Assembly (NCBI RefSeq): GCF_963921235.1
Contig: NC_086108.1
Span: 60,328,001 to 60,392,000 of the forward strand
Direction of reading: 5' to 3'
DNA: 64,000 nucleotides
DNA from: Mobula hypostoma
Lineage: Eukaryota
The notes under the pieces were generated by a model, which had not been told where the DNA came from, did not search any database, and saw only the letters and a list, made by a program, of their open reading frames with translations. The position numbers were made by a program, and so were the translations under genes. Shown in pieces: positions 21,083-24,890 of the stretch. Each line of letters begins with the position of its first letter. Position 1 is the stretch's first letter.

Positions 21083-23976
21083 CCGCGCTCCATAGGGAAT
21101 TGGGATGACGGGAGTTCGAACACCAATGAACACTGAGTGAGGAACCCCCAGCAAGAACCTGGGTCACCACTGAATCTCTCTAGGGTCAGAAGATGGACTG
21201 GCTCCAAAGTGACTAACAGCCTTATCTGAGCGATTCTGGCTTCCTCCTAGTGACAGTTGGTGCACAGCAACCTGGAGGTCGTAAGTCTCCCGGCTCTGTC
21301 TTGAAATATTCTTGCTGTAGCTGACCACAGCTGACGAGAGGCTCCGATACCCTGTTGGGTCCACGTTAGGCTCAATCGTACTGTGACAAGAGACCTGTGC
21401 GAGGATGATTAGACTGGAATTGAGACACGATACAAGACTGGAAAAAAAAACAGCGTTCCAAACTACACACTAGATAAGAATCATAGTAGAGCTGACGACT
21501 GAGCACTGAACGTCAGTTCAAGTGCTCTTTAAATATTAAAATCATGGCTGCCAATTAGCAGGGCAGGCCGGTATCTTTAAAGGGGCCATGCCAGCTATCT
21601 ATATTCCAGAAAGTCAGAGCGTCTAAACTCCAGAAGCTGGCGTACTCTGGTGCATATCGTTACACCTGAGGGTAGCCACTATTGTTCTGTTGCTTAATAA
21701 AGGCTCCAGGAACAAGTTGGGAGGATGTTGGTTTGTGAGCCTGACATCAGTCATGTTTAAGCTATTGGAAGGTGTTTTAAGAGACAGGATATATAAGTAT
21801 TTGGACAGACAAGGACTGATTGGAGATAGTGAAGTGGCTTTGGGCATGGTAGGATATGTCTAAGCAATCAGAGTGGGAGAAATCAGAGAGTGGTAGAGTG
21901 GGTTCTTTCCAACTGGAGGCCTATCACTAGTGGTGTGCCAGAGGGAGGTCAGTACTGGCTCTGTTCTTGTTGTCATCTGTATTAATGATTTGGATGATAA
22001 TGTGGTAAACTGGATCTGCAAATTTGCGGATGACACCGAGGTTGGGGGAGAAGCAGACAGCGGGGATGGCTGTCAATGTTTGTGGTGTGATCTCAACCAG
22101 CTGAGAAGTAGCAGATGGAATTTAATGTTGACAAGTGTGTGGTGTTGCAATTTGAGAGGACAAACCACGGTAAGACTTGCACAGTGTATGGTAGGACACT
22201 GAGATATGAGGTTGAACAAGGGGACCTGGGAATATAGATCCACAATTCCTTGAAAGTGACATCACAGAGATCTTCTGGCTCATTGGCCTTCATAAATCAG
22301 GACACTGAGTACAGGAGTTGGGATGCTATGTTGAAGTTGTATAAGACGTTAGTGAGCCCAAGTTTGGAGTATTATGTGTAGTTCTGGTCATGTTCCTACA
22401 GGAAAGATACCAACAAGCTTGGAAGAATGCAGAGAAAACACCACCAGGTTCAGGAATAGTTCAAAGCATCATGTCAGCATGCTTAGGTTTTATTTGGATG
22501 CTTCAGGGCTGACAGCATAACAGCTTCCAGTTTGTTATTGGCTGATGTCTCTGTGTTCTCTCCACATTTGCAAATGGTGTACGGAACACTTTTACTTTAG
22601 TTGTACTGGCATTGTTTTATTAATGTGGATGGCACGTGACAGTGTACTTATTGTATCCACTGGCCTAGATGGTTTGGATATTTGCTGTGGTGATGGAGTC
22701 TCTATTAGACTTGCCTAATACATAACACTTTTCTATTTGACTTCATTGGTGACTCCTAATGATTCAGAGCACACGATGCTATCCGTGACTCATGTGATCA
22801 CACCATTGCTGAAACTTTTCAAAACCTTCTTCAGATAGCATAATTTAGCCAAGACCTACTAAAGTGATAAAAAACCAAATGCTTTTTGTCAGGTTAATGA
22901 AAGTTGTTACAATTTTTTAAAATCCCATTTCTCCTCTAGTTGGTGAGTTACAAACATCATCTCTGTGATTTGTTTTCTGAAGCACATGCACTCTCGGGTA
23001 CAGGGATGCACTAGGATAGTTCAAAAGAATTTGGCTCATAATAGCCAGGAAATGTCAATTTGCGTGGATTTTGTGTAGTTCCCTTTGTACAGGAGGGTGA
23101 TGAATATATATTTGTACTACTAGGGTTCTGTTCCTTGGGCTCATTTTGATTAGAAGAATTCATCCAGTTTCAGAACCATGTGTAAACCCTTAGCTCCACG
23201 GACCCTTGCTGGTAAACCAACCACTCCAGGTGCTTTGCCAATTGATAGTAATTCCACGTTAAAGAATTATTTTACAATTAGGCTACATAGTGGAAGTAAT
23301 TAGTAATATCACTCTGATCTCTCAAAGACACAGAAAACATTATTCTGATAGCCTGTTAAATCAGGGTAATTTGTAAAAATATAGTGATTAGGAAGATTTA
23401 AAGATCAAATAAATATAAGAGAACGTGAAATTACATTCCATCACAACCTGCTGATAGATGTTGTCCCTCTAGTTCTCCACTACTCTTAGACTGTATATCA
23501 ATGATGAAAATTGTTTGAGAGAATGTTATATTGGAGTCAACGTTGGGAGTGAAATGATCACAATGCTGCATATTCCTTTGCCTTTGATATTTGGATTTTT
23601 GCAATGCCTAATCGGAGAATCTCCTGCTTCCTTTTGTGAAGTATTGATAAACCTTGTGATCAGTTCAGATGTTCCATAGTTGCTTTTGTCTGTTGACCTT
23701 TCTGATGCCATTTTTATATCACTAGAAGAAAGCAAAGGTCTGAATAAGTATGAGTCTTTCTAAGCATCCCTTTGCTTGGATAACCAATCTAGGAAGGGTT
23801 CCGTATTAACGACTTCTGCCTAATATAGAAAAAACTGCTAAATTCAGTGTCTGAAACCATCCTGGCATTGTTGCAAAAGTGGTATTATTTTAAGTTCCCA
23901 CAAAATCATACAATTTAAAATCTGAAACAGATTAGATCCTCCCAACCTCTACAATGAAGGCTTCTCTTGGAAATAT

Positions 23977-24209
23977 CAAGCAACACACATCAAAGTTGCT
24001 GGTGAACGCAGCAGGCCAGGCAGCATCTGTAGGAAGAGGTGCAGTCGACGTTTCAGGCCGAGACCCTTCGTCAGGCTTAGTCCTGACGAAGGGTCTCGGC
24101 CTGAAACGTCGACTGCACCTCTTCCTACAGATGCTGCCTGGCCTGCTGCGTTCACCAGCAACTTTGATGTGTGTTGCTTGAATTTCCAGCATCTGCAGAA
24201 TTCCTGTTG
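23977..24209 (+). mobile_element. Palindromic Penelope-type insertion: 99-bp perfect inverted repeat + 29-bp tail, 12-bp TSD
   Basis: 23977-24075 is the exact reverse complement of 24082-24180; spacer cttagt; TSD tcttggaaatat at 23965-23976 and 24210-24221. Confidence 0.88.
24078..24115 (+). ncRNA. Minimal type-I hammerhead ribozyme motif
   Basis: AGUC (stem I) - CUGACGA - A GGGU CUCG GCCU (stem II) - GAAA - CG - UC - GACU (stem I); predicted cleavage after 24110; vestigial palindromic stem III (ACGU). Confidence 0.72.
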
Positions 24210-24890
24210 TCTTGGAAATATGTCTCCTTTGTTCTTGTAGAGCCAGCCAACAAACAGCTGGTTTGTTACTATTTCAAATAATTGAATAGTTCATGATGTA
24301 GACATCAAAACTTTCCAATTAATATTAAAGGGAATTATGTCAGAGTGTTTAAAGTCAGCGAAGATGCAATTGTTTAATATTTAGATTCTCCTTTCATTGA
24401 AGGAGCTGGCCTATTTCCTTAAAGTGGACATTTCCATTTATGTTTGGAGTTTGCTTCAGTGCCCCTCAACGGGCAGGACACAACCAAGATGTTGTCACAT
24501 TTGTAAAATTCAGTTTGCGTTTATAATATTTACTTTTCAGAAAGGACTGTTCAGTTTGAAATTTGTTGTGATATTATAAATGTGTTCTTTATTGAACTTG
24601 GCTAAGTAACTTAACCCCATAACAATATAACAGACTTGTATCTAAGAAATATTAAGCAAAGTTGAAATATACATATTCATAGTTAATAGAAAATAATTTT
24701 GATAGTTATCAGATATTTCAGTAAATAAAATATTTTCCACTATCTGATAAACACTTGCCTGAAACAGATTCAAGCAGAGCAGTTTTAATTTACAGGTTTA
24801 TGTTTTTATATTTTTTACTTAATTTATTATTTTCTGTAAGGCAACTTTGTGCATTAGTGTTCAGGATTTAGTAGGAATAGCAGTGGACTT

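What the first reader, a model, noticed from the sequence alone, without database searches (positions are those of the whole stretch)
23965..24221. Perfect 99-bp palindromic insertion carrying an intact hammerhead-ribozyme motif in the sense strand of a CYP4 intron
Seen: a 12-bp TSD (tcttggaaatat) encloses a mismatch-free 99-bp inverted repeat (6-nt spacer) plus a 29-nt tail. The right arm reads AGUC-CUGACGA-AGGGUCUCGGCCU-GAAA-CG-UC-GACU, which is the hammerhead core with stems I and II and a vestigial palindromic stem III. Established: such minimal type-I hammerheads occur in Penelope-like element termini, are thought to cleave as dimers, and PLE termini are often inverted with a short tail. 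Inference: this is a young ORF-less, ribozyme-bearing retroposon mobilised in trans. In the CYP4 pre-mRNA the antisense arm is transcribed first, so it should trap the ribozyme in 99 bp of dsRNA. That built-in lock could let such elements sit in introns without cutting the host transcript. The minus-strand copy lacks the 5' strand of stem I.
Basis: partly seen in the sequence, partly recalled or inferred. Interest (0 to 1): 0.82.

Follow-up and report, generated by a model that had tools for sequence, protein, structure and literature searches.

The report
Palindromic stub of Penelope-like jumping gene
This palindrome in a ray's gene intron is the clipped end of a very common Penelope-like jumping gene, inserted twice head to head, and is likely a dead-end product of that element's copying rather than a new ribozyme-carrying mobile element with a built-in lock.

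Summary
The sequence description is correct: 12-bp TSD, perfect 99-bp arms, 29-nt tail, minimal hammerhead motif, sense strand of a CYP4 intron. The reading as an ORF-less family is not supported. The right arm plus tail is the last 134 nt of an abundant autonomous Penelope-like element (RT + GIY-YIG, Neptune-type linker, 1,015-aa open frames; 21,015 exact tail matches in this ray genome). Of 90 position-ordered copies, 48 have no inverted arm and many run on into the ORF; this exact junction occurs only twice genome-wide. The palindrome is made anew at insertion, a known PLE architecture. The duplex would mask the motif, but a lock is not needed: lone minimal hammerheads are reported inactive, and half the copies lack it. 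The less ordinary result is statistical. Partner arms share variants (145/162 sites), are both short or both long (41/41), and 5' ends pile up about 15-fold just upstream of the uncut hammerhead. This points to two primings on one RNA that run off its 5' end (inferred). The scan noted the same kind of insertion earlier in two other genomes.

The parts
23965..23976 (+). left target-site duplication (12 bp)
23977..24075 (-). inverted arm: 99 nt of the PLE 3' end without the tail; inferred to be a second cDNA started at the inner RT start site
   Evidence: IR; outer ends of left arms at -26..-42 in 34 of 42 inverted copies match the 3' ends of tail-less long copies
24043..24075 (-). second hammerhead core on the minus strand, lacking most of the stem I 5' strand
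   Evidence: sequence; motif scan
24076..24076 (.). one junction base (C) that matches neither arm's template
   Evidence: comparison with the parent sequence CTTCAG-TTAGTCC
24077..24210 (+). direct arm: last 134 nt of the autonomous Penelope-like element (end of pLTR plus tail), cut off at the 5' side just upstream of hammerhead stem I
   Evidence: 95.5-97% identical to the ends of ORF-bearing copies L081, L083, L085, L086
24079..24114 (+). minimal type I hammerhead motif; predicted cut after 24110; activity untested
   Evidence: sequence; matches the min-HHR description in PMC4209133; core columns invariant in 14 related motifs; no Rfam hit
24181..24209 (+). PLE 'tail', 29 nt, the stretch between the two RT start sites by analogy with the anole element PAc
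   Evidence: PMC11167929
24210..24221 (+). right target-site duplication (12 bp)
12619..12771 (+). CYP4 (4B1/4T8-like) exon upstream of the host intron
   Evidence: tblastn 86-90% identity
26170..26220 (+). CYP4 exon downstream of the host intron
   Evidence: tblastn 94-100% identity

Best explanation
The insertion is the 5'-truncated 3' end of an autonomous Penelope-like retrotransposon joined head to head with a second, tail-less copy of the same end, and it was likely made in one insertion event in which both nicked target strands primed reverse transcription on the same element RNA. Shown: the parent element (pLTR with hammerhead and tail, 1,015-aa RT + GIY-YIG ORF, pyrimidine-rich 3' UTR), the range of copy lengths, two fixed 3' start positions 29-35 nt apart, variable junctions, 11-19 bp TSDs. 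Inferred: the endonuclease makes a staggered cut of about 12 nt; one strand primes at the tail end and the other at the inner start site; both cDNAs pass the uncut hammerhead and stop near -125..-146, likely because the RNA begins there (the tail lies in the 5' leader of the element's mRNA, so the product resembles a strong-stop cDNA); the two cDNA 3' ends are joined by microhomology or a few untemplated bases. The product lacks the sequence downstream of the tail that the anole PLE protein needs for binding, so it is predicted to be a dead end. In CYP4 pre-mRNA it would fold as a 99-bp hairpin that masks the motif, as a by-product. Odds: identity as a PLE stub about 0.97; two RNA-templated primings about 0.75; run-off at an RNA 5' end about 0.55.
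For: Parent: L083 shows pLTR(hammerhead, tail)-5'UTR-ORF-3'UTR-hammerhead with a TSD; L081 and L082 hold 1,015-aa frames with DKG, RYIDD and CxxxxCxxC motifs; RVT_1 and GIY-YIG match below Pfam's cut-offs and homologues carry PF00078/PF01541. Abundance: 21,015 exact matches to a 41-nt tail motif. Sample of the first 90 such matches on contig C1: 42 inverted, 48 not; right arms 54 to >2,700 nt. Junctions: 24 different centres among 29 palindromic look-alikes; the exact 30-nt junction occurs at 2 places, and the other has a different TSD, different variants and the tail on the opposite arm. Same template: partner arms agree at 145 of 162 polymorphic site pairs in 39 copies, shuffled partners 0.54 on average, maximum 0.69 in 2,000 shuffles. 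Two syntheses: in 15 of 41 copies the tail-less arm is at least 20 nt longer than the tailed arm, so neither arm can be a fold-back copy of the other. Stop zone: 32 of 76 right arms end in -122..-146 (2.1% per nt against 0.12-0.15% upstream of -200); genome-wide 47,323 exact matches reach -130, 3,802 diverge at the next base, 3,783 at the one after, 28,975 reach -145, while substitutions at -131/-132 were 1 and 0 of 68. Arms are both <=160 nt in 24 and both longer in 17 of 41 copies, none mixed. PAc cuts and extends both strands, starts at two sites that bound the tail, uses uncut RNA and needs sequence downstream of the start (PMC11167929).
Against: No RNA start was mapped: only contigs of uncertain type were available. 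The 5' ends form a plateau over about 25 nt, not one sharp site. The 160-nt threshold was chosen after seeing the data; at 200 nt one copy (L055, 167/856) is mixed, and L049 (three segments) was left out. Several long copies have nearly equal arms (e.g. 893/892), which fold-back would also give. The 90 copies come from the first 13 Mb of one contig and need an exact 41-nt tail, so older and tail-less copies are under-sampled. In D. virilis Penelope the start lies about 120 nt upstream of the hammerhead with an intron between (PMC2377424, PMC4209133), unlike the start inferred here. Clade assignment rests on a motif; no tree was built.
Confidence: 0.8

Rival explanations
1. Fold-back or self-priming: one cDNA (or an antisense template, as proposed for rotifer PLEs) snaps back near the hammerhead and copies itself to give the second arm.
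For: Proposed for head-to-head PLE junctions in PMC3846280. Explains shared variants and near-equal arm lengths (Spearman 0.85 over 41 copies); junctions often use short microhomologies.
Against: In 15 of 41 copies the tail-less arm is longer by 20 to 2,700 nt while only the other arm has the tail. The tail-less arm starts where direct tail-less copies start (-25..-43).
Confidence: 0.15
2. Same two-priming process, but the pile-up of 5' ends is a reverse-transcriptase stall on long RNA at a structure or a protein-bound 3' splice-site-like motif just upstream of stem I, not an RNA start.
For: A branch-point-like word, polypyrimidine tract and YAG directly precede stem I in the parent and in older related motifs; in D. 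virilis the intron ends at helix I (PMC4209133). The ends form a plateau.
Against: Independent stalls with about 50% chance would give roughly 20 mixed short/long pairs in 41; none was seen at 160 nt. No constant first-exon sequence lies upstream of the ends.
Confidence: 0.25
3. One reading: an ORF-less ribozyme retroposon, mobilised in trans as a unit, whose antisense arm evolved or is kept as a lock that protects host transcripts.
For: The 125-160-nt class is the commonest size (38 of 90 right arms); 24 of 90 copies are short palindromes; the hairpin is far more stable than the hammerhead fold. Non-autonomous PLE derivatives exist (bioRxiv 10.64898/2026.07.22.740005).
Against: Junctions are not inherited; short and long copies share haplotypes and divergence, 2.8% against 3.1%; 48 of 90 copies lack the arm; lone min-HHRs are inactive in vitro (PMC4209133) and the PAc ribozyme needs its protein (PMC11167929).
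Confidence: 0.05
4. MITE of a DNA transposon.
For: Short, high-copy, palindromic.
Against: Asymmetric with a tail; TSDs 9-19 bp and variable; the arm is the end of an RT + GIY-YIG element.
Confidence: 0.01

Closest known systems
Inverted, 5'-truncated insertion units of endonuclease-positive Penelope-like elements with pLTR and tail (PMC8557442; PMC3846280; passages read)
   Same: Head-to-head inverted arm at the 5' side, 29-nt tail on one arm only, TSD around the whole unit, hammerhead motif in the pLTR, partial-tandem full-length copies, RT + C-terminal GIY-YIG ORF.
   Different: Here both arms are so short that no ORF sequence remains; TSDs are 11-19 bp against 8-10 bp in the rotifer examples; such stubs are the commonest product.
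PAc, Poseidon element of Anolis carolinensis (PMC11167929; abstract, main text and part of methods read)
   Same: Two RT start sites bounding the tail, both target strands extended, uncut hammerhead RNA as template.
   Different: In PAc the ORF starts inside the hammerhead and the tail lies in the ORF; here the inferred start codon lies about 38 nt after the tail, and the linker has a CxxxxCxxC motif typical of Neptune/Nematis rather than Poseidon.
Minimal type I hammerheads of metazoan PLEs (PMC4209133; abstract, results, discussion read)
   Same: CUGANGA and GAAA boxes, extra base after A9, palindromic 15.2-16.2 without helix III, 4-5 bp helix I, acceptor-like motif ending at helix I as in D. 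virilis.
   Different: Helix II is 4 bp and closes with G-U in most copies (G-C in a minority and in older relatives).
Animal non-LTR retrozymes (bioRxiv 10.64898/2026.07.22.740005; abstract, introduction, part of methods and passages read)
   Same: ORF-less, hammerhead-bearing, derived from PLE pLTRs.
   Different: Retrozymes are head-to-tail tandem arrays with at least two hammerheads on one strand; this is a single head-to-head unit with one core per strand.
LINE-1 twin priming (recalled; search listing only)
   Same: Inversion made at insertion by priming from both target strands.
   Different: In L1 the second primer anneals internally and the arms do not overlap; here both arms cover the same terminal sequence from two fixed starts, giving a palindrome.

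Membership tests
Endonuclease-positive Penelope-like element (parent family) | Single ORF with RT and C-terminal GIY-YIG endonuclease | tested here: met
   1,009-1,015 aa frames in L081-L083; RVT_1 E 8e-5 and GIY-YIG E 0.002, both under Pfam's curated cut-offs; homologues with PF00078/PF01541
Endonuclease-positive Penelope-like element (parent family) | Partial tandem giving a pLTR upstream of the ORF | tested here: met
   L083 and L081
Endonuclease-positive Penelope-like element (parent family) | Optional 30-40 bp tail at one end | tested here: met
   long copies end at 0 or at -25..-43; 29 nt here
Endonuclease-positive Penelope-like element (parent family) | 5' truncation with adjacent inverted copy and TSD | tested here: met
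   42 of 90 inverted; TSD found in 69 of 90
Neptune clade | Zn-finger-like Cys motif in the RT-EN linker | tested here: met
   CxxxxCxxC in 10 of 10 long frames; criterion from PMC8557442, shared with Nematis
Neptune clade | RT phylogeny with Neptune references | not tested
   no named reference sequences were at hand; no tree built
Minimal type I hammerhead | Conserved core boxes, helices I and II, palindromic 15.2-16.2 | tested here: met
   sequence; core columns invariant or nearly so in 14 motifs
Minimal type I hammerhead | Covariation in helices I and II | tested here: inconclusive
   83.6% of cells paired, far above slid controls but not above shuffles (82/500); hand-picked, mostly decayed copies
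Minimal type I hammerhead | Match to an Rfam hammerhead model | tested here: not met
   no hammerhead family at E<=10; minimal motifs lack helix III and were found by a relaxed descriptor in PMC4209133
Minimal type I hammerhead | Self-cleavage as dimer or with the element's protein | not testable with these tools
   only an indirect hint: 28 of 100 listed arms that end in -95..-103 end at the predicted cut, about half explained by microhomology (counted by eye)
Non-LTR retrozyme / non-autonomous PLE family | Head-to-tail tandem units with two or more hammerheads on one strand | tested here: not met
   single head-to-head unit
Non-LTR retrozyme / non-autonomous PLE family | Unit inherited as a whole (shared junction or private variants) | tested here: not met
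MITE | Terminal inverted repeats, fixed short TSD, DNA transposase partner | tested here: not met

The most novel reading that the evidence does not exclude
These stubs are a fossil record of how Penelope-like elements make inverted insertions: a dimeric enzyme primes both target strands on one RNA at two sites about 30 nt apart, and on RNA that begins just upstream of the hammerhead both cDNAs run off its 5' end, giving strong-stop-like 235-bp hairpins as the commonest product (thousands of copies in this genome); a small excess of ends at the predicted cut site may record rare ribozyme cleavage in the germ line.
Probability: 0.45. Interest if true: 0.55.

Novelty: new member of a known kind. 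Interest (0 to 1): 0.33.

Why it matters
The single insertion is ordinary. It matters as a warning (such stubs look like MITEs, microRNA hairpins or new ribozyme retroposons) and as data: how PLEs form tandem and inverted insertions is called undefined in PMC8557442, and this family offers tens of thousands of young copies in which arm lengths, variants and end points can be counted. If the run-off model holds, it links the in vitro two-start-site result for PAc to the genomic palindromes and predicts where the element's transcript starts. About a quarter of sampled copies are short near-perfect hairpins, so ray pre-mRNAs would carry many dsRNA substrates; editing or small RNA production was not tested.

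Tried and rejected
Rfam search: only hairpin look-alikes (miRNA models under their cut-offs), no hammerhead. Pfam GIY-YIG search of the genome returned mostly a different PLE family (14 of 15 loci), not the parent. A single sharp 5' end at -130, suggested by the listing, was rejected by counts at -130 and -131 being equal. A spliced first exon or captured host exon upstream of the short arms was looked for and not found: upstream lies the TSD or the other arm; distant TSDs turned up in only 2 of 17 copies lacking a near TSD, both within 350 nt. The first covariation count between arms (145/170) included six unrelated neighbours and was redone with true partners. Sequencing runs: no RNA holder listed; contigs of four runs showed no CT..AC joint among the 15 joints displayed, 26 not shown, and cannot show starts. 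Two searches with the CYP4 exon in the wrong frame found nothing. Paper searches for palindromic PLE stubs in rays or sharks, for MITE-like PLE derivatives and for a strong-stop model found no paper describing them; Repbase and Dfam could not be searched, and supplements of PMC4209133 and PMC11167929 were not read, so the family or the pattern may be on record there.

Full report
Observation. The described anatomy is in the sequence: TSD 23965-23976 and 24210-24221, perfect arms 23977-24075 and 24082-24180, 6-nt spacer, 29-nt tail. The right arm carries the minimal hammerhead boxes with a predicted cut after C24110. Rfam has no hammerhead match at E<=10, and the lowest-energy fold of 24076-24125 is an alternative pairing no better than shuffles. 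tblastn with ray CYP4B1/4T8 proteins places seven + strand exons in the window; the insertion lies between those at 12619-12771 and 26170-26220. The host is a 3.48-Gb genome whose CYP4 exon is 97% identical to stingray and manta proteins.

The family. A 41-nt motif at the tail end has 21,015 exact matches. I took the first 90 on contig C1 and aligned each to one natural long copy, L086; positions below count back from the tail end (window 24210 = 0, predicted cut between -100 and -99, core starts at -127, stem I at -131). Right arms range from 54 to over 2,700 nt; 42 copies have an adjacent inverted arm and 48 do not; a TSD of 9-19 bp (one mismatch allowed from 11 bp) was found in 69. Longer copies continue through a pyrimidine-rich UTR of about 300 nt into a GIY-YIG and RT frame. 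A protein search of the genome gave 130 scored matches at 95-100% identity, several in frames near 1,000 aa. L083 is a textbook partial tandem: truncated 3' end, hammerhead, tail, short 5' UTR, 1,009-aa ORF, UTR, hammerhead, TSD. L081 and L082 have 1,015-aa frames with intact DKG and RYIDD motifs; 10 of 10 long frames have a CxxxxCxxC linker motif, which PMC8557442 gives as a mark of Neptune and Nematis. The window's arm is 95.5-97% identical to these ends. So the insertion is a stub of an autonomous PLE.

The palindrome is made at insertion. Among 29 palindromic look-alikes picked by similarity there are 24 different centres. The window's exact junction occurs at 2 places in the genome; the other has another TSD, other variants and the tail on the opposite arm. 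Short and long copies share haplotypes at four polymorphic sites and differ from the yardstick by 2.8% and 3.1%, so there is no separate non-autonomous lineage. The same architecture occurs at kilobase scale (L093-L095). Inverted 5' copies and a one-sided tail are described as typical of PLEs (PMC8557442; PMC3846280; passages).

How it most likely forms. Long direct copies end either at 0 or at -25..-43; 34 of 42 inverted arms begin at -26..-42 (the others are cut by the locus end, shortened, or one at -18). This matches the two RT start sites that bound the tail in the anole element PAc, whose protein cuts and extends both target strands and uses uncut RNA (PMC11167929). Partner arms agree at 145 of 162 polymorphic site pairs in 39 copies, against 0.54 for shuffled partners, so both come from one source. 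In 15 of 41 copies (L049 left out) the tail-less arm is at least 20 nt longer than the tailed arm, which fold-back cannot give. I infer two primings on one RNA followed by head-to-head joining, often at microhomologies.

Why the stubs are about 130 nt. 32 of 76 right arms that reach -122 end by -146: 2.1% per nt, against 0.2% downstream and 0.12-0.15% upstream of -200. Genome-wide exact counts agree: 47,323 reach -130, 3,802 diverge at the next base, 3,783 at the following one, 28,975 reach -145 (these include substitutions, which were 0-1 of 68 at -131 and -132). Arms are both at most 160 nt in 24 copies and both longer in 17, none mixed (threshold chosen after the fact, one mixed at 200 nt). 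Independent stalls would give about 20 mixed. The simplest reading is two kinds of template: long read-through RNA, and RNA whose 5' end lies just upstream of the hammerhead, where the tail sits in the 5' leader. No RNA start could be mapped, and a stall at the acceptor-like motif that precedes stem I in several subfamilies remains a rival. D. virilis Penelope starts inside its pLTR from an internal promoter, 46 nt before an intron that ends at helix I (PMC2377424; PMC4209133), which fits in kind but not in distance.

The ribozyme and the lock. The motif fits the min-HHR description of PMC4209133, in which single motifs did not cleave and dimers cleaved weakly. Core columns are conserved in 14 related motifs but covariation is not above shuffles. 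Most arms extend past the cut site, so templates were mostly uncut or re-ligated; among 100 listed of 1,414 arms that end in -95..-103, 28 end at -99, about half through microhomology (by eye), a weak hint of some cleavage. In CYP4 pre-mRNA the whole insertion is predicted to fold as a 99-bp hairpin (-221 kcal/mol, against -7.7 for the hammerhead stems). That masks the motif but is a by-product: 48 of 90 copies have no such arm. Intron enrichment was not tested. By analogy with PAc, which needs sequence downstream of the start sites, the stub is predicted unable to move again.

Verdict. Real feature, known kind: a truncated, inverted insertion of a Neptune-type PLE. My reading was recorded before looking at earlier notes; two notes from other genomes reach the same class and are not independent evidence. 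Eight paper searches found the architecture described but not the arm-pair statistics or a run-off model; Repbase, Dfam and supplements were not seen. Interest 0.33.

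Noticed in passing
L061-L075 (G000 GIY-YIG hits), e.g. L066, L069, L072, L074: A second endonuclease-positive PLE family (29% identical to the parent protein) occurs in tandem arrays, many near contig ends (e.g. 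C75:4014, C21:15276, C12 within 7 kb of its end), with telomeric hexamers in a constant orientation (CCCTAA on the coding strand; up to 133 in L066 against 1.1 per 3 kb background). It may be a telomere-associated PLE that keeps its endonuclease.
   Followed up: partly
L065, L067, L068, L069, L072: Ends of the hammerhead-bearing family lie inside or beside copies of that second family in 5 of 14 loci.
   Followed up: no
L083:5651-5685 (minus strand) and older motifs in L087, L094, L116, L161, L167: A branch-point-like word, polypyrimidine tract and YAG end exactly at the 5' strand of hammerhead stem I across subfamilies, as reported for the D. virilis Penelope intron; no spliced form was seen.
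   Followed up: partly
window 800-889, 28858-29016, 31443-31668, 32886-33034, 46834-46933: Five older relatives (74-85% identity) of the same PLE end; three are decayed head-to-head units with a tail, all without an intact core. All but the first lie in introns of the same CYP4 gene.
   Followed up: partly
window 4464-9451 (minus strand): Long frames of 328 and 370 aa with a coiled-coil stretch and a CCHC zinc knuckle (gag-like, by eye), next to a 667-aa LINE-like RT frame at 4959-6959.
   Followed up: no
window 2851-3237, 10342-10752, 57679-58320: Tc1-like transposase fragments, named by eye from the translations.
   Followed up: no
L138, L135, L049: Tandem or rearranged copies in which the tail is followed by the element's own 5' UTR or an internal RT piece is joined to a truncated pLTR.
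   Followed up: no
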